Sequence record: NC_025447.1 | Source: Escherichia phage 121Q | Length of the DNA: 64,000 nt | Direction: 5' to 3' (one strand) | Shown here: piece by piece, positions 40,660-60,306 of the stretch | How the letters are laid out: every line of letters begins with the position of its first letter | How positions within the stretch are numbered: the first letter of the stretch is position 1 | The notes under the pieces: generated by a model | Database searches by the model: none | What the model saw: only the letters and a program-made list of their open reading frames with translations | What the model was told of the DNA's origin: nothing | Program-made: the position numbers and the translations under genes

Positions 40660-40995
<336 letters not shown>

Positions 40996-40996
40996 A

Positions 40997-41179
40997 ATGA
41001 CACACGAAGAATGGATGTACAAACAGCATAAAGAACATGACTGCTTTGGGAATGGTATTCGTCAGGTACATTATGATATTCTCAAAGATATAAATTTATT
41101 CATAAAATATGTTTTGGATGAAAATAAACATTGGTTTATATATGAGATTGCATATAGAAACTCAAATAAACAAAAATAA
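40997..41179 (+). CDS. MTHEEW-family small protein
   Basis: MTHEEWMYKQ...HWFIYEIAYRN; paralog of 40477..40653. Confidence 0.5.
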   Translation: MTHEEWMYKQHKEHDCFGNGIRQVHYDILKDINLFIKYVLDENKHWFIYEIAYRNSNKQK

Positions 41180-41193
41180 ATAAGGAATATATT

Positions 41194-41412
41194 ATGGAAA
41201 CAACGTTATTTGAAGTTATTCAAGCATTAAAAACTGGTGATGACATTCAAGTATTGCTACATGGTTATCGTTTAAAAGGCACTGTGGTTTTAGTTAATGA
41301 CACAACGTTAGTTATTGCCGAAACAAATCCATATGATAGTAATCAAGTTGCTAATATCCATATTGATATTAAAAGCATTATTGGTGTAGGCGTAAATAAA
41401 AATCAAGAATAA
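41194..41412 (+). CDS. hypothetical small protein
   Basis: 72-aa ORF. Confidence 0.45.
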   Translation: METTLFEVIQALKTGDDIQVLLHGYRLKGTVVLVNDTTLVIAETNPYDSNQVANIHIDIKSIIGVGVNKNQE

Positions 41413-41490
41413 CAAATGTTTTTGAAAAAAACCAGAAAATGAATGATTTTTTTGGACAACTCAAAAATATATGATATAATAATTAGTACA

Positions 41491-41580
<90 letters not shown>

Positions 41581-41584
41581 ATAT

Positions 41585-41680
<96 letters not shown>

Positions 41681-41689
41681 CTAAAAACC

Positions 41690-41854
41690 ATGACGCATGA
41701 AGAATGGATGAATGATATTAATTTTAGATATTCGGGTATCGGTAGTTGGCGAAAATATCATTGGGAAATTATTTCAGACCCAGCAGAATACGATAAACTT
41801 ATAAACCATGAAGTATATCCGTGGTTCTTTATTGAAATAATGGTACGAATATGA
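41690..41854 (+). CDS. MTHEEW-family small protein
   Basis: MTHEEWMNDINFRYSGIGSW...; 54 aa. Confidence 0.5.
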   Translation: MTHEEWMNDINFRYSGIGSWRKYHWEIISDPAEYDKLINHEVYPWFFIEIMVRI

Positions 41855-42011
41855 CGCATGAAGAATGGATGAATGACATTAATTTTAGATATTCGGGTAT
41901 CGGTAAATGGCTAAAGTATCATTGGGAATTCATTTCAGAGCCACATATGTATGATAAACTTATCAACGATCCAGCATATGAAATGTACTTAATTGAACTA
42001 CTGGTACGAAT

Positions 42012-42015
<4 letters not shown>
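41851..42015 (+). CDS. MTHEEW-family small protein
   Basis: MTHEEWMNDINFRYSGIGKW...; near-duplicate of 41690 copy; ATGA overlap. Confidence 0.5.
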
Positions 42016-42177
<162 letters not shown>

Positions 42178-42185
42178 AAAAAAAG

Positions 42186-42595
<410 letters not shown>

Positions 42596-42599
<4 letters not shown>

Positions 42600-42630
42600 C
42601 TAAATAATTCAGTACTGAGGATATTAATAT
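42596..42630 (+). promoter_or_regulatory. degenerate copy of promoter cassette (copy 2)
   Basis: TTGACTAAATAATTCAGTACTGAGGATATTAATAT; -35 and spacer conserved, -10 degraded. Confidence 0.35.
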
Positions 42631-42656
42631 GTTTAAAGATGAACGTCCAGATTTGT

Positions 42657-42694
<38 letters not shown>

Positions 42695-42699
42695 GAATT

Positions 42700-43050
42700 C
42701 CACAATCAGACGTATATGGTGTAAGCTACGTCGATGCAATCCAGAACAAGATCTCTGGTACTCTAGGAAGTGGTGAATGTTAACCTAGACGGGTTTGATA
42801 ATTGGACGATAGGCAATTATTACTTGACTAGCAGGTTGAAACTAGAGGTGACAGTCCTTCACCAAACTGGAAAACCGGATGGACTTTTATTTAAAAGGGT
42901 AAGGCGTGGAAATATGTTTACAGAAGTTGCTTTTAGTAGCCTGTACGCCCCACGACAAGGTAGCCGAAAGGTAAGTTAAAACGGGTGGTTATAAAGCTGA
43001 ATTAACAGCGGCGTTTAAAAGCGTCACCATCCATTTTTTTAATTAAAGTT
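42700..43050 (+). ncRNA. candidate structured non-coding RNA downstream of early promoter
   Basis: About 350 nt between a consensus promoter and the next RBS with no convincing ORF, locally GC-richer, several hairpins including GGTGACAGTCCTTCACC and a GAAA-loop stem. Confidence 0.3.
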
Positions 43051-43056
43051 GGCGAT

Positions 43057-43809
<753 letters not shown>

Positions 43810-43826
43810 TTCACATGATATAGGGA

Positions 43827-44088
<262 letters not shown>

Positions 44089-44096
44089 GAATCTTC

Positions 44097-44498
44097 ATGA
44101 AAAAGAATGACTTGATCAAAATGCTCCAAGAGATTGACGGCAATCCAGAGATTGTTATTTGGAATGGCTATGTCGATGATTATATGAACATCGAAAAAGG
44201 CTTGACTAAAATCACACTAGTCAAAGAAACTGAACAGTTCCTTCTGAACGCATTAGAGCATGAATGGTGCGAACGTAACAAGACATTCGACATTCCAGAA
44301 GACCAACGAACTAAGATTGCAGAACGTGCTAAAGAACTTCATAAGAAGCGTGAATACGATTTCCAGAACCCATATGTTACTGAAGAAGAATTCAATCGCT
44401 GGTACGGAAAAAGAAAGTTGACAAAGTATGTTCTTTCACCTAAACTACGTGGTAAGACTTCTCTTGGTGTATTCAATGCATCTGACTTAGATTACTAA
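44097..44498 (+). CDS. hypothetical protein (paralog pair with 45138..45353)
   Basis: N-terminus MKKNDLIKMLQEIDGNPEIVIW resembles MKAKDLISILQKNPEADILIH. Confidence 0.55.
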   Translation: MKKNDLIKMLQEIDGNPEIVIWNGYVDDYMNIEKGLTKITLVKETEQFLLNALEHEWCERNKTFDIPEDQRTKIAERAKELHKKREYDFQNPYVTEEEFNRWYGKRKLTKYVLSPKLRGKTSLGVFNASDLDY

Positions 44499-44508
44499 GG
44501 AAAACAAA

Positions 44509-44829
44509 ATGATGTGGTATTCAAATGTACCGTGTGAACCTAAATATATTCAGATTTCACATAATGCACTGAAAGCGTTCTGTGATAATTGCAGTACTAA
44601 AGATTATCACTTCGAAGACTTCAGAACGTTGATTTATGACCATCACTGTCAGCCAGCAACCAAAGATGGTATGTTTGTAATTGAACAATTCTTTCATGGT
44701 AAGGTATTGCAAATTGTTGCTGATTATCTGAAAGCAATGGGATATATTATCAAAGATGATTATCTTGATTTAGAAGGTGAATGCATTGTTGATGGTTATG
44801 ATGGTGTACTGATGAATTGGACATGGTGA
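44509..44829 (+). CDS. hypothetical protein
   Basis: 106-aa ORF. Confidence 0.5.
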   Translation: MMWYSNVPCEPKYIQISHNALKAFCDNCSTKDYHFEDFRTLIYDHHCQPATKDGMFVIEQFFHGKVLQIVADYLKAMGYIIKDDYLDLEGECIVDGYDGVLMNWTW

Positions 44830-44833
44830 TGAA

Positions 44834-45136
44834 ATGATTGCAACAATGATGATTGTACTTATCCCAATAGTACTAGTAATTCTAGTGACTTCATATGGTG
44901 CAACCACAACTATTGAAGATCTAAAAACACATTACGCTATCGTCTTTAGTGAAGCACATGAAGACTTTGGTACAGTACTGACCGATAAGACTTATATTGC
45001 AACTAAATGTAAGTACTACCGATTCTGGGAACGTTCTGACAAATACCACTACAGAGATGAGAAAGGCGTGAATCAGTACTTAGACGTACTGGATGCATTC
45101 TTGAAACCTTACTATACAGTAACCGAGGTAAAATAA
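44834..45136 (+). CDS. hypothetical membrane-anchored protein
   Basis: N-terminal TM MIATMMIVLIPIVLVILV. Confidence 0.5.
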   Translation: MIATMMIVLIPIVLVILVTSYGATTTIEDLKTHYAIVFSEAHEDFGTVLTDKTYIATKCKYYRFWERSDKYHYRDEKGVNQYLDVLDAFLKPYYTVTEVK

Positions 45137-45137
45137 C

Positions 45138-45353
45138 GTGAAAGCTAAAGATTTGATTTCAATTTTACAGAAAAACCCAGAAGCAGATATTCTTATTCAT
45201 GCTTCGCCTTATGATGACTATGCGATTGGTAGTTGCGAAACTGCTCATTCATATCAAGCAGGGGACACCGCTGTTGAAGAGTCTGGTGAAGATTTTTCGG
45301 AATCATTTGATGAAGATGGAAAACTCTTAGTACCAGTCATCATTCTCTCATAA
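45138..45353 (+). CDS. hypothetical protein (paralog pair with 44097..44498)
   Basis: GTG start in track; N-terminal similarity to 44097 ORF. Confidence 0.45.
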   Translation: MKAKDLISILQKNPEADILIHASPYDDYAIGSCETAHSYQAGDTAVEESGEDFSESFDEDGKLLVPVIILS

Positions 45354-45360
45354 AAGAACG

Positions 45361-45543
<183 letters not shown>

Positions 45544-45562
45544 AGAGGTACTTCGAGTATGC

Positions 45563-45629
<67 letters not shown>

Positions 45630-45632
45630 TAA

Positions 45633-45661
45633 TTGACATAACTTTGAATGGAGTGTATTAT
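45633..45661 (+). promoter_or_regulatory. sigma70-type promoter
   Basis: TTGACA, 17-nt spacer, TATTAT. Confidence 0.5.
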
Positions 45662-45704
45662 GTTCCAAGAAGAAAACTGGGGTTTTTAACATAACGGGGA
45701 ATGT

Positions 45705-45837
<133 letters not shown>

Positions 45838-45838
45838 G

Positions 45839-45889
<51 letters not shown>

Positions 45890-45895
45890 TAATTA

Positions 45896-45968
45896 GCCGA
45901 CTTAGCTCAGTAGGTAGAGCGTTCCTCTTGTAAGGGAAATGTCACCAGTTCAATTCCGGTAGTCGGCA
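45896..45968 (+). tRNA. tRNA-Thr (anticodon UGU)
   Basis: Perfect acceptor GCCGACT/AGTCGGC, D-arm GCTCAGTAGGTAGAGC, anticodon loop CTTGTAA, T-loop TTCAATT; CCA not encoded. Confidence 0.65.
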
Positions 45969-45980
45969 CAAAATAAAGGT

Positions 45981-56747: not shown

Positions 56748-57245
56748 ATGACAACTGTTTATATTGATAAACGATTAAATTTATTGATTACCGATTCTAG
56801 AGTTACGTCAACTATACCACGAAACTTATTTGGTTTTTTCCCACTAAGACCAAAATATCAATATGGAGTTGTTAATCAAAAAACTTTATATGTACATGAC
56901 CGTTTATTCAGTGCTAGTGGGTCAGTAAGTGAAATTGATAAAGTACTGGATTGGTTAATTAATAAAGTACCAGTTATACCTGACAGAAAGTTAAGTTGCC
57001 ATTGTGTGCTTCTTTCTAAAGATTATGTTATTCATATGATTTTAACTAAAGGAAAGTTTATTAAAAAACTTGAATATCTACATGAAGACTACACTTTCTT
57101 TATGGGAAGTGGTGGAGAATACATGGTAGATGCTGCTATTCATGAAGAACATACAACTTTATATGATAAAGTGTTTAGTACTTTCATGGATGTGCATAAC
57201 CATGATTGCTTCACAGATGATAATATTAATGTATATCGATTTTGA
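56748..57245 (+). CDS. HslV/proteasome beta-like Ntn-hydrolase peptidase (putative)
   Basis: Starts MTTVYIDKR (Thr directly after Met, cf. HslV MTTIVSVRR); FFMGSGGEYMVDAA matches HslV IAIGSGGPYAQAA; Gly/Ser-rich FSASGSVSE at the position of HslV GFAGGTADAF; 165 aa. Confidence 0.5.
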   Translation: MTTVYIDKRLNLLITDSRVTSTIPRNLFGFFPLRPKYQYGVVNQKTLYVHDRLFSASGSVSEIDKVLDWLINKVPVIPDRKLSCHCVLLSKDYVIHMILTKGKFIKKLEYLHEDYTFFMGSGGEYMVDAAIHEEHTTLYDKVFSTFMDVHNHDCFTDDNINVYRF

Positions 57246-57266: not shown

Positions 57267-58232
57267 GTGAAAAAGCTTGATTTAAATACAATTGCCGAAG
57301 AAGTTCTGGATGAATGTTTTTCTAATGAAGAAGTCAACACACTAGAAGCCTTAGATTTCGTTGAAGATAAAGATGAAAATGAAGGTAAAGTACAAAGCAG
57401 TTTCAAATATAATATTACACTTAAGCGACCACCAAATGTTTCCAATGAAGATCTAATTCGTGATATTCAAGCTGGTATCAATGTAAAGAAAAACACTGAA
57501 CTGTTAGTTCGTTACAATTATGGACTTATTATTGATGTAGCAAGTAAATGTACTTGTTATATCCCATTTGAAGATAAGATTTCATATGGTGTTGAGGGGT
57601 TCATGAGAGCACTAAAAACCTTTGATCTTAATAAGAATGTGAAGTTCATTACCTATGCTTCTTCTAGTATTTACATGACAGTTTATAACGAAAGTTCTGA
57701 CGCTAACTATATGGTACACTTCCCACGTTATATGAGTGTTCATAAGATCAAAGTAAAAAGATTCTGTCAGGAATATATGCGTAAACATGGTGTTCGCCCA
57801 ACTCCTGAAATAATCTCAGAGGGTACTGGGATTGAGATTCAGCATGTTAATAACTGTTTGTTATTTCAAAGCGAATACACTTCTCTGGATGCACCATTAG
57901 ACGGTGTTACCGATGGTACACTAGGTGACATTATTCATTCACCTGCTTCTGATTTTAACCTCAATGTTGATAGTATTCGTGCACCTTTACGTTATGCTAT
58001 CAATGAACTGACTAACGAATTGAGTACTAAAGAACGTGAGATTATCCAGCGTGTTCATGGTCTAGGTGAATATGAACCTGAAACGCTTCGTGAGATTGCT
58101 GATAATGGTTTTGTTGATGATAATGGAAAATATGTTAAATCCCGTTCATCAATACATCGAAAGTACAGTGAAGCTATGCAAAAGCTTAAGAAGCTAGTAC
58201 TTGCAAAAGGGTACGAATACGAAGATTTCTAA
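57267..58232 (+). CDS. sigma-70 family RNA polymerase sigma factor (regions 2 and 4)
   Basis: Region 2-like LVRYNYGLIIDVASK...GVEGFMRALKTFD...KFITYASSSIYMTV; region 4 HTH-like EREIIQRVHGL...ETLREIADNGF...SRSSIHRKYSEAMQKLKK; GTG start after AGGAG. Confidence 0.7.
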   Translation: MKKLDLNTIAEEVLDECFSNEEVNTLEALDFVEDKDENEGKVQSSFKYNITLKRPPNVSNEDLIRDIQAGINVKKNTELLVRYNYGLIIDVASKCTCYIPFEDKISYGVEGFMRALKTFDLNKNVKFITYASSSIYMTVYNESSDANYMVHFPRYMSVHKIKVKRFCQEYMRKHGVRPTPEIISEGTGIEIQHVNNCLLFQSEYTSLDAPLDGVTDGTLGDIIHSPASDFNLNVDSIRAPLRYAINELTNELSTKEREIIQRVHGLGEYEPETLREIADNGFVDDNGKYVKSRSSIHRKYSEAMQKLKKLVLAKGYEYEDF

Positions 58233-58240
58233 AGAAAAAA

Positions 58241-58265
58241 GGTTGGCTTATGCCAACCTTTTTTT
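58241..58265 (+). terminator. intrinsic terminator
   Basis: GGTTGGCTTATGCCAACC hairpin followed by T7 run. Confidence 0.65.
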
Positions 58266-58269
58266 ATGG

Positions 58270-58790
58270 GATGAAGTAAAAGTTTGTGATATAATTATCT
58301 TGTACAATTCTGTTGGCATGATATTCATGTACCTGATCCACTCGAAAACGTAGAGGGCAGTTGAGCAGTCCGACAGTGCGAACAGCAAAAGAAACCCGTT
58401 AGATGTGGGCATAGTTTGAACCCCTCACGGCAATGCGGCTGTATAAAGAACCACGTTAGGATAGCTGGTGGTTCCTTGATAGACATATAAGGATAACACC
58501 TTACGAATTATCTAAGGGAGAGTTATCAAATTTTGTACAGGAAAGTTGCGTCCAGAATTTGAGTACTCACATTAAGTATTTGATTGCATAGATACTTAAT
58601 GAAGATACACTATGTTTAAAAGTGTAGACCGTCATATGAAACTGAAGTAGAGAGAAACAGGATGACCCGCTTTCGCACTCGTTATGAGTAATCTTCAATG
58701 CAATAGCTCTGATACCATCAGCGTCAAATTTCCCTCCTTGTGGGGGGAAGAAAAATCCCTTCCTCAAATCCCGTCAATATTAAAAGTCCT
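58270..58790 (+). other. GC-richer non-coding region (candidate structured RNA or gene remnant)
   Basis: About 520 nt without a convincing ORF between terminator and next promoter; visibly higher GC than flanks. Confidence 0.3.
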
Positions 58791-58818
58791 TGACAGTTAT
58801 TAATCATTCGCGTAGAAT
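58790..58818 (+). promoter_or_regulatory. sigma70-type promoter
   Basis: TTGACA, 17-nt spacer, TAGAAT. Confidence 0.5.
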
Positions 58819-58882
58819 ACGTAGTATTAGAAGCGAACAGACATCTCGAAGAGATGGATGATTAACCATTAAGGAATATCCA

Positions 58883-59092
58883 ATGAATTCAGTAATCTTT
58901 TTAGTAGTCGCTTTCTCTGTTAATTCCGGTATACAAATAACCCCAATGAATTCCATGAATCAATGCATAGCAGTACGTGATAGTACATACGAACAAGTAA
59001 ACAAAGATATTTGGATTACAGTTAATAAAGAACAAATGTGGTGTTACAATAGTAATACTAACACAAAGCTTATTGTAGGACAAACTCAATGA
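58883..59092 (+). CDS. hypothetical small protein with N-terminal hydrophobic segment
   Basis: 69-aa ORF with AAGGAA RBS. Confidence 0.5.
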   Translation: MNSVIFLVVAFSVNSGIQITPMNSMNQCIAVRDSTYEQVNKDIWITVNKEQMWCYNSNTNTKLIVGQTQ

Positions 59093-59319
59093 GTTATGGT
59101 GTTCGTTTTGAGATTCGTTCTATTGTCATCGATGCAGAGAAACAAGTATCGTTAGATGGTGATATACGTGAAATTTATCTATCATGTATCCGTGCGAAAT
59201 CTGAAGCAGATGCCTTAGTACAAATGTATAGTTTTAACTTTTCAAATGGATTCTATTTGGTACGAGTTGTTGAAGTTAAAAAAGTAATTCTTGGTTGTTG
59301 CATAGAAGGAATAATGTAA
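59089..59319 (+). CDS. hypothetical protein
   Basis: 76-aa ORF, ATGA overlap. Confidence 0.5.
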   Translation: MSYGVRFEIRSIVIDAEKQVSLDGDIREIYLSCIRAKSEADALVQMYSFNFSNGFYLVRVVEVKKVILGCCIEGIM

Positions 59320-60108
59320 ATGAGCACTATCGATGAACTGATTCAACGGAATTCAAAATATTACCAACCATCAGAAATTGTGGATAACATTACTAAATCT
59401 GAGTTTGGACCGAACACACGCAAACTCATTCATGTAATGTCACGTGATGGCTTTAAATGTGATTGTTGTGGTGAATCAAATGTAGTATTCACTTTACACA
59501 AGCACAGTACTAAAGAACGTTATAAATTCAGACCTTATGTACTTAAAGGGAAACGCCTTGTACGCATGACGTTAGACCATAATGTACTGGACTGTCTTCA
59601 GGGCGGTAATGATAAAGAGAACATGACTGCATTGTGTGAAGATTGTAACGCATTACGCCAGCATAAGTTTGCTGAGTACAGTGAGTTTAAACACTGGTAT
59701 CATAACGCGGATCGTTCAATCGAGCCTGACGTTAACTACTGCTTCATTGAGTACATTAAGAATGCCAAAGATACATACATTCTTAAATCAATGTCACCTA
59801 TTACCGTGTTTCCTGAGAACCTATTCACTACATTAAAGAATAGTTTTATTGTCGGTGATATTGATGCATTCAAGTATTTTGACAAAGGTGCAAAACATTT
59901 TGAAATTCAATGTCTTAGTACTGCACTATGTAAACTCATTAAAATTTACATAAAAGAGTATTTGGGTATTGACAATGTACGTGTACCAGAGTATACTTTT
60001 TCTATTGAATTCGATTGTGAATCAATTAAAGAGTTTGGAATTCTTTTCAATAAACAAATAGAACTTGCAATTCAAAACGAAATCAAGTACTATACTACTA
60101 ACATTTAA
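59320..60108 (+). CDS. HNH endonuclease (free-standing, homing-endonuclease-like)
   Basis: CDCCGESN ... MTLDHNVLDCLQGGNDKENMTALCEDCNALRQH: Cys pairs plus H-N-H catalytic pattern. Confidence 0.75.
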   Translation: MSTIDELIQRNSKYYQPSEIVDNITKSEFGPNTRKLIHVMSRDGFKCDCCGESNVVFTLHKHSTKERYKFRPYVLKGKRLVRMTLDHNVLDCLQGGNDKENMTALCEDCNALRQHKFAEYSEFKHWYHNADRSIEPDVNYCFIEYIKNAKDTYILKSMSPITVFPENLFTTLKNSFIVGDIDAFKYFDKGAKHFEIQCLSTALCKLIKIYIKEYLGIDNVRVPEYTFSIEFDCESIKEFGILFNKQIELAIQNEIKYYTTNI

Positions 60109-60123
60109 TCAGAGGAAATTATC

Positions 60124-60306
60124 ATGCAAATTATCATTCTTATCGTTGGCATCATGCTGGGTGTTTACGGTCACTCCTGGATGAACGAGAAGTTTCCTAA
60201 TACGCGTCCTGAGTATTGCAGTACTAATGTATTCCAGAATGGTGAGAAACCAAAGGAAAGTATTGGTAAAAAGCTGGACAAAGTACTTGATGTGATCAAT
60301 GAATAA
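60124..60306 (+). CDS. hypothetical small membrane protein
   Basis: MQIIILIVGIMLGVYG hydrophobic N-terminus. Confidence 0.45.
   Translation: MQIIILIVGIMLGVYGHSWMNEKFPNTRPEYCSTNVFQNGEKPKESIGKKLDKVLDVINE

What the first reader, a model, noticed from the sequence alone, without database searches (positions are those of the whole stretch)
59320..60108. Free-standing HNH endonuclease in a gene-dense accessory region
Clear Cys-pair plus HNH motif protein, not inserted in an intron or split gene. Such free-standing homing endonucleases drive localized gene conversion in T4-like phages and may explain the mosaicism around this region (GC-rich island upstream, repeated promoters).
Basis: partly seen in the sequence, partly recalled or inferred. 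Interest (0 to 1): 0.35.

Follow-up and report, generated by a model that had tools for sequence, protein, structure and literature searches.

The report
Jumbo-phage HNH endonuclease gene, decaying in relatives
The ORF is a real, catalytically intact HNH DNA endonuclease gene of a PBECO4/G17-like jumbo coliphage (not a T4-like phage); databases already annotate it as such, related phages have lost it partly or wholly, and it carries the promoter for the next genes inside its own coding sequence.

Summary
Observation confirmed: 59320..60108 (+) is a 262-aa ORF with C47xxC50, D86-H87, N101 and C106xxC109-N110. All of these are invariant across 30 family members down to 21% identity.

The window is an Asteriusvirus (Rak2-like jumbo phage, 99.6% identical to G17/Sharanji), not T4-like. 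Orthologues are already labelled "HNH endonuclease" (PHROG 35175, RefSeq PBECO4, UniProt slurp01). The family is small and was found only in Rak2-like jumbo phages.

The gene is free-standing and lies third in an early sigma70-type operon. It is under purifying selection (dN/dS 0.13-0.30) and syntenic down to 60% protein identity.

It is also dispensable:
- 26 records keep it intact.
- SD-1_S14 and CMSTMSU carry frameshifts.
- A4 keeps only Met-Ser-Thr plus residues 181-262.
- EC22.5-2, JNE01 and Turkey5 keep only a ~45-nt scar.

The scar is a consensus promoter (59969-59997) that lies inside the HNH coding sequence, so "empty" sites are deletion scars, not naive insertion sites. Recombination breakpoints flank the gene and also fall within it.

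Most likely it is a long-resident selfish or competitive nuclease in a decay cycle. Cleavage activity and target are untested. Ordinary overall.

Separately, the "GC-rich island" upstream is a conserved, multi-copy structured-RNA candidate unrelated to the HNH gene.

The parts
58790..58818 (+). sigma70-type promoter (TTGACA-N17-TAGAAT) heading the three-gene early operon: 69-aa ORF, 76-aa ORF, HNH
   Evidence: 11 of 12 consensus positions. No terminator-like site between it and the HNH gene.
58883..59092 (+). 69-aa ORF, left neighbour. This is where the haplotype switches in phage EC22.5-2.
   Evidence: EC22.5-2 is 99-100% identical to the window up to 58878. It then drops to 82/77/50% and becomes 94-100% identical to HNH-less JNE01.
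59089..59319 (+). 76-aa ORF (PHROG 28392, unknown function). Its start overlaps the upstream stop (ATGA). It is deleted together with the HNH gene in the scar alleles.
   Evidence: Absent from EC22.5-2, JNE01 and Turkey5. Present at 52% identity in A4 and 79% in vB_Ec-M-J.
59320..60108 (+). HNH endonuclease gene, 262 aa, including the stop codon
59458..59664 (+). Zinc-stabilised beta-beta-alpha-metal core (residues 47-115): C47xxC50, D86-H87, N101, C106xxC109-N110
59420..59779 (+). Low-divergence patch within the gene (codons ~34-153) shared between the two main allele types
   Evidence: 93-98% nucleotide identity to vB_Ec-M-J, against 55-87% in the rest of the gene and its flanks. dS is 0.16, against 0.66-1.18 for the other parts of the gene.
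59860..60105 (+). C-terminal helical region (residues 181-262). It survives alone in phage A4 as ORF A4_184 (Met-Ser-Thr plus residues 181-262).
   Evidence: It is homologous to the C-terminal part of full-length family members P0016 and P0017. No fold match.
59969..59997 (+). sigma70-type promoter TTGACA-N17-TATACT embedded in the HNH coding sequence (codons for G-I-D-N-V-R-V-P-E-Y-T), about 125 nt upstream of the next gene
   Evidence: Conserved in all HNH alleles including the 60%-identical contig L007, and it is all that remains in the scar alleles. The Asp codon is GAC in every allele, although GAC makes up only 20% of Asp codons in this window.
60124..60306 (+). 60-aa ORF, first gene downstream and presumably served by the embedded promoter. 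Right end of the EC22.5-2 recombination patch (~60198).

Best explanation
The gene encodes a working, zinc-stabilised HNH-type (D-H...N...N) DNA endonuclease. It belongs to a small family found only in Rak2-like jumbo phages.

It is expressed early as the third cistron of a host-sigma70-driven operon (promoter at 58790). It is a free-standing, dispensable, selfish-type nuclease gene that has sat at this locus for a long time, not a recent insertion. The proposed mechanism is intronless homing or marker exclusion. In mixed infections the enzyme nicks or cuts the genomes of relatives that lack an intact copy, at or near this locus. Repair from the HNH+ genome then restores the gene together with flanking markers. 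Between such events copies decay.

The observed alleles form a decay series: intact, frameshifted, nuclease domain deleted (A4), and almost fully deleted (EC22.5-2, JNE01, Turkey5). A consensus sigma70 promoter for the downstream genes lies inside the 3' third of the coding sequence. It is the one piece that every decayed allele retains, so loss of the gene is constrained to leave that scar.

Shown here: gene, motif, fold, conservation, purifying selection, allele series, embedded promoter sequence, recombination breakpoints. Inferred only: nuclease activity, its target, homing, and promoter activity.
For: Identity as an HNH nuclease:
- PHROG 35175 matches full length.
- D86, H87, N101, N110, C47, C50, C106 and C109 are invariant in 30 homologues at 21-95% identity.

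Functional constraint:
- dN/dS is 0.13-0.30 against alleles at 98%, 79% and 60% protein identity.
- The gene is at the same locus in a metagenomic relative with a 60%-identical protein.
- There is partial synteny with Salmonella phage Munch.

Dispensability and decay:
- 26 records are intact.
- SD-1_S14 has a 31-bp frameshifting deletion and CMSTMSU has two 1-bp deletions.
- A4 retains Met-Ser-Thr plus residues 181-262, with a short direct repeat (ATYGATG) at the junction.
- EC22.5-2 (and the matching ECO103 4-12-1 record), JNE01 and Turkey5 lack the 76-aa ORF and the HNH gene.

Scar rather than naive site:
- The 77-85-bp 'empty' intergenic region carries TTGACA-N17-TATACT/TATAAT.
- Its spacer (8-9 of 17) and downstream sequence match the promoter inside the HNH ORF better than any of 13 other promoters in the window (at most 6 of 17). 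Only 1 of 5000 shuffles reaches the observed values.
- The protein segment encoded across the promoter (GIDNVRVPEYTF) aligns with GIKNARKPKYNF in the distant family member P0016. The coding sequence is therefore ancestral.

Recombination around and inside the gene:
- EC22.5-2 is 99-100% window-like outside 58879-60198 but JNE01-like inside that interval.
- The nuclease core has dS 0.16, against 0.66-1.18 in the rest of the gene.

Free-standing paralogous or orthologous family members sit at another locus in Eneladusvirus and Mimasvirus phages. The CBB paper already calls such genes free-standing HNH homing endonucleases (PMC5259590).
Against: - No cleavage activity, target site or homing event has been shown for this protein or any family member.
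- The alleles lacking the gene are scars, not naive sites, so there is no direct evidence that the gene has ever invaded an unoccupied site.
- Long-term synteny and purifying selection fit a gene useful to the phage at least as well as a purely selfish one.
- The mosaic breakpoints coincide with highly conserved flanking sequence (58383-58878). That sequence would focus ordinary homologous recombination without any nuclease.
- The CMSTMSU frameshifts could be sequencing errors, since that record is flagged UNVERIFIED_ORG.
Confidence: 0.55

Rival explanations
1. Domesticated nuclease. The enzyme is kept because it benefits the phage, not because it homes. It might attack co-infecting rival phages (interference competition), degrade host DNA, or process phage DNA early in infection.
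For: The position is syntenic down to 60% protein identity, with partial synteny to phage Munch. Purifying selection acts on both halves of the protein. The family homologue is also syntenic between Eneladusvirus and Mimasvirus. It sits in an early operon behind a host-type promoter. There is a precedent in another jumbo phage: the intron-encoded endonuclease gp210 of PhiPA3 interferes with a co-infecting phage (PMC11620839).
Against: The gene has been lost or broken repeatedly in phages that were isolated and propagated, so any benefit is conditional. No defence or anti-defence family matches. Recurrent homing also maintains purifying selection, so selection alone does not discriminate.
Confidence: 0.27
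2. Recent insertion of a mobile HNH cassette into a naive intergenic site. Under this view the genomes without it show the original empty site.
For: There is a presence/absence polymorphism of a ~1-kb block (76-aa ORF plus HNH) between phages that are 98-100% identical in the flanks.
Against: The 'empty' sites contain sequence homologous to the inside of the HNH ORF, namely the promoter, half of its spacer and ~15 nt downstream. A4 holds an in-frame internal deletion that keeps the original start codon. The gene's divergence from the other allele types is of the same order as that of its neighbours. It is at the same locus in a relative with only 60% protein identity.
Confidence: 0.08
3. Degenerate, catalytically dead HNH remnant that acts only as a DNA-binding protein.
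For: Pfam HNH models score below their thresholds. The third 'H' position (H115) is not conserved in the family.
Against: The general base H87, with D86, N101, N110 and all four zinc cysteines, is invariant over 30 sequences. N110 in place of His is the known 'HNN' arrangement of active enzymes (own knowledge). The nuclease half has dN/dS of 0.14.
Confidence: 0.04
4. Packaging-associated HNH protein that works with terminase, like HK97 gp74.
For: It has an HNH fold with CxxC pairs, as those proteins do.
Against: No terminase or portal gene lies within several kb. The neighbours are a sigma factor and small early ORFs. The gene is behind host-type early promoters. It is more than twice the size of those proteins and is dispensable in several isolates.
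Confidence: 0.02

Closest known systems
Orthologues annotated 'HNH endonuclease' in Asteriusvirus genomes (PBECO4 RefSeq NC_027364, UB, JP4, fEgEco12 Gp520, slurp01 UniProt A0A1C3S5W8; PHROG 35175)
   Same: Same gene at the same locus, 79-99.6% protein identity.
   Different: Nothing of substance. These are annotation labels only, with no experiments. Several records call it 'hypothetical protein'.
Free-standing HNH genes of other Rak2-like jumbo phages (Pectobacterium CBB, Cronobacter GAP32, Serratia BF BF_0529, Yersinia fHe-Yen9 g524/g517, Salmonella Munch gp499)
   Same: Same family: 21-42% identity over the N-terminal ~180 residues, with the same invariant C..C, DH, N, CxxCN, R and FAEY..FK.WY motifs. 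They are free-standing in early regions. The CBB paper describes three such genes as free-standing HNH homing endonucleases (PMC5259590).
   Different: They lie at a different locus (upstream of a thioredoxin gene in Eneladusvirus). They are 290-330 aa with an extra C-terminal tail ending in ...F.KL..AFK.LFA, which the Asteriusvirus proteins lack. No embedded TTGACA promoter is expected, because the Asp codon is absent there.
T4-type free-standing HNH homing endonucleases (Mob family) and intronless homing as shown for T-even Seg/Mob enzymes (own knowledge)
   Same: The proposed way of working is the same: a free-standing nuclease gene between phage genes, sporadic among relatives, with flanking recombination tracts.
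   Different: No detectable sequence relationship: tblastn and HMM searches return only Rak2-like phages and generic HNH domains. The host phage is not T4-like. Homing is not demonstrated. The gene-less alleles here are deletion scars rather than cleavable naive sites.
PhiPA3 gp210, an intron-encoded homing endonuclease of a nucleus-forming jumbo phage (PMC11620839)
   Same: A nuclease gene of the homing type in a jumbo phage, shown there to harm a co-infecting relative. It is a model for the competition reading.
   Different: That enzyme is intron-encoded within an RNA polymerase gene and belongs to a different phage lineage. No similarity was tested or found here.

Membership tests
HNH (beta-beta-alpha-metal) endonuclease superfamily | General-base His in a D/H-H dipeptide at the end of the first strand | tested here: met
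   D86-H87 is invariant in 30 homologues and in the 7-sequence cross-genus alignment.
HNH (beta-beta-alpha-metal) endonuclease superfamily | Structural Asn and a metal-ligand Asn/His on the helix after the second CxxC | tested here: met
   N101 and N110 are invariant. H115 is variable (D/S/N), so this is the H-N-N arrangement.
HNH (beta-beta-alpha-metal) endonuclease superfamily | Two Cys pairs forming the structural zinc site (in the zinc-finger subclass) | tested here: met
   C47, C50, C106 and C109 are invariant.
HNH (beta-beta-alpha-metal) endonuclease superfamily | Beta-beta-alpha-metal fold | tested here: met
HNH (beta-beta-alpha-metal) endonuclease superfamily | Curated profile score (Pfam PF01844 gathering threshold) | tested here: not met
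   15.7 bits against a 21.4 cut-off; HNH_5 scores 15.1 against 27.5. PHROG HNH families match strongly, and two family members carry precomputed PF01844 hits.
HNH (beta-beta-alpha-metal) endonuclease superfamily | Metal-dependent DNA nicking or cleavage | not testable with these tools
   Needs purified protein.
Free-standing homing endonuclease gene (intronless homing) | Not inside an intron, intein or split host gene | tested here: met
   No intron family in Rfam. The flanking 69-aa and 60-aa ORFs are separate intact genes in alleles without it.
Free-standing homing endonuclease gene (intronless homing) | Sporadic presence among close relatives | tested here: met
   26 intact, 2 frameshifted, 1 domain-deleted, and 4 records lacking it among Asteriusvirus records.
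Free-standing homing endonuclease gene (intronless homing) | Existence of a naive, never-occupied cognate site in relatives | tested here: not met
   All gene-less alleles examined retain a remnant of the gene's 3' region, the embedded promoter.
Free-standing homing endonuclease gene (intronless homing) | Co-conversion or recombination tracts centred on the gene | tested here: inconclusive
   There is a patch at 58879-60198 in EC22.5-2 and a low-dS core at 59420-59779. Breakpoints in conserved flanks are also expected from ordinary recombination.
Free-standing homing endonuclease gene (intronless homing) | Cleavage of the gene-less allele near the insertion point and super-Mendelian inheritance | not testable with these tools
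   Needs cleavage assays and phage crosses.
Terminase-associated HNH proteins (HK97 gp74-like) | Gene adjacent to terminase and portal genes | tested here: not met
   The neighbours are a sigma factor and small early ORFs in every annotated relative.
T4-like phage Seg/Mob endonucleases | Host genome is T4-like, or the protein is homologous to Mob/Seg proteins | tested here: not met
   The genome is an Asteriusvirus. tblastn against 50,697 phage records hits only Rak2-like jumbo phages.

The most novel reading that the evidence does not exclude
The nuclease gene and an essential regulatory signal are entangled. The early promoter for the downstream genes evolved inside the HNH coding sequence, so the phage cannot cleanly excise the selfish gene. 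Every decay product keeps that piece (a 'promoter hostage' arrangement). The intact enzyme would serve as a weapon in mixed infections among Asteriusviruses, cutting genomes that carry only the scar and so driving the observed exchange of ~1.3-kb patches.
Probability: 0.15. Interest if true: 0.5.

Novelty: already known. Interest (0 to 1): 0.22.

Why it matters
As a gene, it matters little. It is an HNH endonuclease that public annotation already names, in a phage group where such genes have already been noted.

The comparative picture has modest value. It gives a clean natural series for the life cycle of a free-standing nuclease gene in jumbo phages: intact, frameshifted, domain-deleted, scar. 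It shows that 'empty' sites can be scars. It also shows a promoter embedded in the nuclease gene that constrains how the gene can be lost.

It further supplies ready-made HNH+ and HNH- phage pairs (G17 or PBECO4 against JNE01 or EC22.5-2) for testing homing or interference competition in a non-nucleus-forming jumbo phage.

The more interesting object at this locus is the multi-copy structured-RNA candidate just upstream. It deserves its own study.

Tried and rejected
- A sequence search of the PDB found nothing relevant.
- The first AlphaFold run, on 4 close sequences, was too poor to use (pLDDT 50).
- NCBIfam gave only a weak HNH-domain-level match to IscB (19.7 bits against a 175-bit cut-off). 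This is not membership.
- PADLOC gave nothing for the HNH protein or the 76-aa ORF.
- P0033, a 971-aa protein with 14 repeats that matched residues 174-214, is a low-complexity artefact and was ignored.
- The 256-aa ORF at the equivalent place in the divergent Asteriusvirus EJP2 is not an HNH homologue and matches no PHROG.
- The extra ORFs upstream of the HNH gene in contig L007 match no PHROG.
- Synteny between this locus and the HNH loci of Eneladusvirus and Mimasvirus was looked for and not found, apart from the HNH gene itself. One downstream gene is shared with phage Munch.
- No paralogue of the gene exists within the window.
- I considered that the upstream conserved element might be functionally tied to the HNH family, because both have the same phyletic range. 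I rejected this. The element is present in HNH-less genomes, and its paralogous copy sits ~105 kb away with no HNH gene nearby.
- Literature searches found only annotation-level mentions.

Full report
**What is there.** The ORF is exactly as reported: 59320..60108 on the + strand, 262 aa. The window has 33% GC, and about 3e-5 open frames of this length are expected by chance. The protein carries C47-x-x-C50, D86-H87, N101 and C106-x-x-C109-N110. PHROG 35175 ('HNH endonuclease') matches it end to end (E=1.8e-188), and thirteen other HNH PHROGs match more weakly. Pfam HNH and HNH_5 match only below their gathering scores. NCBIfam gives only a domain-level echo of the IscB HNH domain, and PADLOC gives nothing.

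**Which genome.** The locus is 99.6% identical to Escherichia phages vB_EcoM_G17 and Sharanji, and 95-99% identical to phAPEC6, slurp01, UB and PBECO4. These are classified in Asteriusvirus, the Rak2-like jumbo phages of ~350 kb. The phage is therefore not T4-like. Several records already label the orthologue 'HNH endonuclease', UniProt does so for slurp01, and the fEgEco12 genome paper lists it as Gp520 next to the sigma factor Gp519 (PMC13070987). None of this goes beyond annotation.

**The family.**
- A word-indexed search of 5.8 billion proteins found five clusters.
- An exhaustive HMM search of 1.84 billion representatives found 140 proteins at E<=1e-3, but only 28 at E<=1e-10. The weaker ones match just the generic HNH core.
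- tblastn against 50,697 phage records hits only Rak2-like jumbo phages: Asteriusvirus, Eneladusvirus, Mimasvirus, the Salmonella Munch/7t3 group, Klebsiella fENko-Kae01, Xanthomonas XbC2/XaC1 and Erwinia Kaldavass. It does not hit Klebsiella RaK2 or K64-1.
- In a 30-sequence alignment reaching 21% identity, C47, C50, T84, D86, H87, L90, G95, N101, C106, C109, N110, R113, A118, F123 and N139 are invariant.
- H115, which a reader might take as the last 'H', varies (D/S/N). The metal ligand is therefore N110 and the motif is the H-N-N variant.

**Context and expression (inferred).** The gene is free-standing. A 69-aa ORF (58883..59092), a 76-aa ORF (59089..59319, ATGA overlap) and the HNH gene (ATG directly after the TAA) follow a TTGACA-N17-TAGAAT promoter at 58790-58818. 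No terminator-like site intervenes. All genes here are on the + strand. Perfect or near-perfect sigma70 promoters are strongly enriched in the window, with 12 matches against 1.0 expected. This fits the early region described for the related phage CBB (PMC5259590). No terminase or portal gene is nearby.

**An embedded promoter.** A TTGACA-N17-TATACT site lies inside the ORF at 59969-59997, across the codons for G-I-D-N-V-R-V-P-E-Y-T and about 125 nt before the next gene. It is conserved as TTGACA-N17-TATA(A/C)T in every allele type: window, vB_Ec-M-J, A4 and the 60%-identical contig L007. The Asp codon is always GAC, although GAC is only 20% of Asp codons in the window.

**Presence, decay and loss.** Among Asteriusvirus records:
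- 26 have an intact gene.
- SD-1_S14 has a 31-bp deletion right after the HNH motif.
- CMSTMSU has two 1-bp deletions. That record is flagged unverified, so these may be sequencing errors.
- Ecwhy_1 merely has its record opened inside the gene.
- A4 has an 87-aa ORF consisting of Met-Ser-Thr fused to residues 181-262. This is an in-frame deletion of the nuclease part, flanked by a short direct repeat (ATC/ATT-GATG) in the full-length gene.
- EC22.5-2 (the ECO103 4-12-1 record has the same length and the same match), JNE01 and Turkey5 lack both the 76-aa ORF and the HNH gene. Their 69-aa and 60-aa ORFs are separated by 77-85 bp.

**Empty sites are scars.** The short intergenic region in the gene-less phages consists of the same promoter. 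Its spacer matches the HNH-internal promoter at 8-9 of 17 positions, and its first ~15 downstream bases are similar too. Thirteen unrelated promoters of the window reach at most 6 of 17, and 1 of 5000 shuffles reaches the observed values. The protein segment encoded across the promoter aligns with distant family members (GIKNARKPKYNF in P0016). The coding sequence is therefore older than the promoter, and the gene-less alleles derive from gene-bearing ones. The gene is also at the same locus in contig L007, a relative with 60% protein identity, although the genes upstream of it differ there. One downstream gene is shared with the HNH locus of phage Munch. This is a long-resident gene, not a fresh insertion.

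**Selection.** dN/dS is 0.24 (vs UB), 0.30 (vs vB_Ec-M-J) and 0.13 (vs L007), and both halves of the protein are constrained.

**Mosaicism.** Two signals were found.
- EC22.5-2 is 99-100% identical to the window up to 58878 and again from ~60199. Between those points it is 94-100% identical to JNE01, whose sigma-factor gene further left is only 50-77% identical to the window. A short patch carrying the scar allele therefore sits in a window-type backbone, or the reverse.
- Between the window-type and vB_Ec-M-J-type alleles, codons 34-153 are 93-98% identical with dS 0.16. The rest of the gene has dS 0.66-1.18 and the neighbouring genes 0.36-0.70. The nuclease core has thus been exchanged more recently than its surroundings.

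Both signals fit nuclease-stimulated gene conversion. Both also fit ordinary recombination anchored in the nearly identical sequence at 58383-58878.

**Interpretation.** The best reading (about 0.55) is an active early HNH nuclease of the free-standing, selfish type. It would be maintained by recurrent repair-mediated transfer among co-infecting Asteriusviruses and would decay in between, with its 3' end pinned by the embedded promoter. A domesticated role, such as competition with co-infecting phages as shown for PhiPA3 gp210 (PMC11620839), is the main rival (about 0.27). A recent insertion into a naive site, a dead remnant and a packaging cofactor are all disfavoured. Activity, target and homing are untested.

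**Side observation.**
- RNAalifold on five orthologues gives 149 pairs, 21 of them with compensatory double changes.
- The element occurs 3-5 times per genome, 246 places in 60 records, and only in Rak2-like jumbo phages.
- One paralogous copy lies in another intergenic gap ~105 kb away.
- A seven-sequence alignment including paralogues and three other genera gives 76 pairs, 35 with compensatory changes, separated by invariant unpaired blocks.
- Rfam has no match.
- The element is present in HNH-less genomes, so it is independent of the HNH gene.

**Verdict.** The gene itself is already known at annotation level and is ordinary.

Noticed in passing
window 58332-58775 (+), between the terminator at 58232-58267 and the promoter at 58790: ORF-free ~440-nt element (GC ~0.40) that is far more conserved than the flanking genes. 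It has strong covariation support for a secondary structure: 35 of 76 consensus pairs show compensatory changes across paralogues and four phage genera. It occurs 3-5 times per genome, only in Rak2-like jumbo phages, and has no Rfam match. It is a candidate new large structured RNA family. One GenBank record (UE-S1) marks part of it merely as 'repeat_region'. There is no second copy inside this window.
   Followed up: partly
window 58287-58295 (+): A possible extended -10 promoter (TGATATAAT) lies just after the sigma-gene terminator and ~40 nt upstream of the conserved element. It could give the element its own transcript. This was read from the sequence and not tested.
   Followed up: no
window 57267-58232 (+): Phage-encoded sigma-70 family factor (regions 2, 3 and 4; PHROG 351). 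It is unusually divergent between Asteriusvirus lineages, with 50-77% nucleotide identity and dS ~1.6, although it lies next to near-identical non-coding sequence.
   Followed up: no
window 58232-58267: A 30-nt perfect palindrome flanked by A-run and T-run sequence (AAAAAAGGTTGGCTTATGCCAACCTTTTTTT). It looks like a bidirectional intrinsic terminator after the sigma gene. It is the source of the weak Rfam sRNA look-alike hits.
   Followed up: partly
window 56748-57245 (+): A 165-aa ORF (PHROG 24804) with a weak match to an HslV-family peptidase PHROG (E=4.9e-6).
   Followed up: no
window 40682-45969 (+): A cluster of six tRNA genes (Gly-TCC, Ser-TGA, Ser-ACT, Met-CAT, Asn-GTT, Thr-TGT). ARAGORN calls all six, while Rfam's tRNA model at gathering score finds five and misses Gly.
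   Followed up: no
L014 3499-4269 (Escherichia phage EJP2, OQ411014.1 293906-294676): In this divergent Asteriusvirus, a 256-aa ORF sits just downstream of the conserved element. It matches no PHROG, and EJP2 gave no hit in the tblastn search with the HNH protein. A different gene of similar size is therefore in this variable slot.
   Followed up: partly
L007 2570-3885 and 4691-5946 (ENA contig ERZ14189038 NODE_291): This metagenomic relative has the same backbone order: sigma factor, conserved element, 69-aa ORF homologue, HNH, 58-aa ORF. It carries extra ORFs inserted on both sides of the conserved element, including a 286-aa ORF directly upstream of the HNH gene in place of the 76-aa ORF. 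This marks the positions as variable slots.
   Followed up: partly
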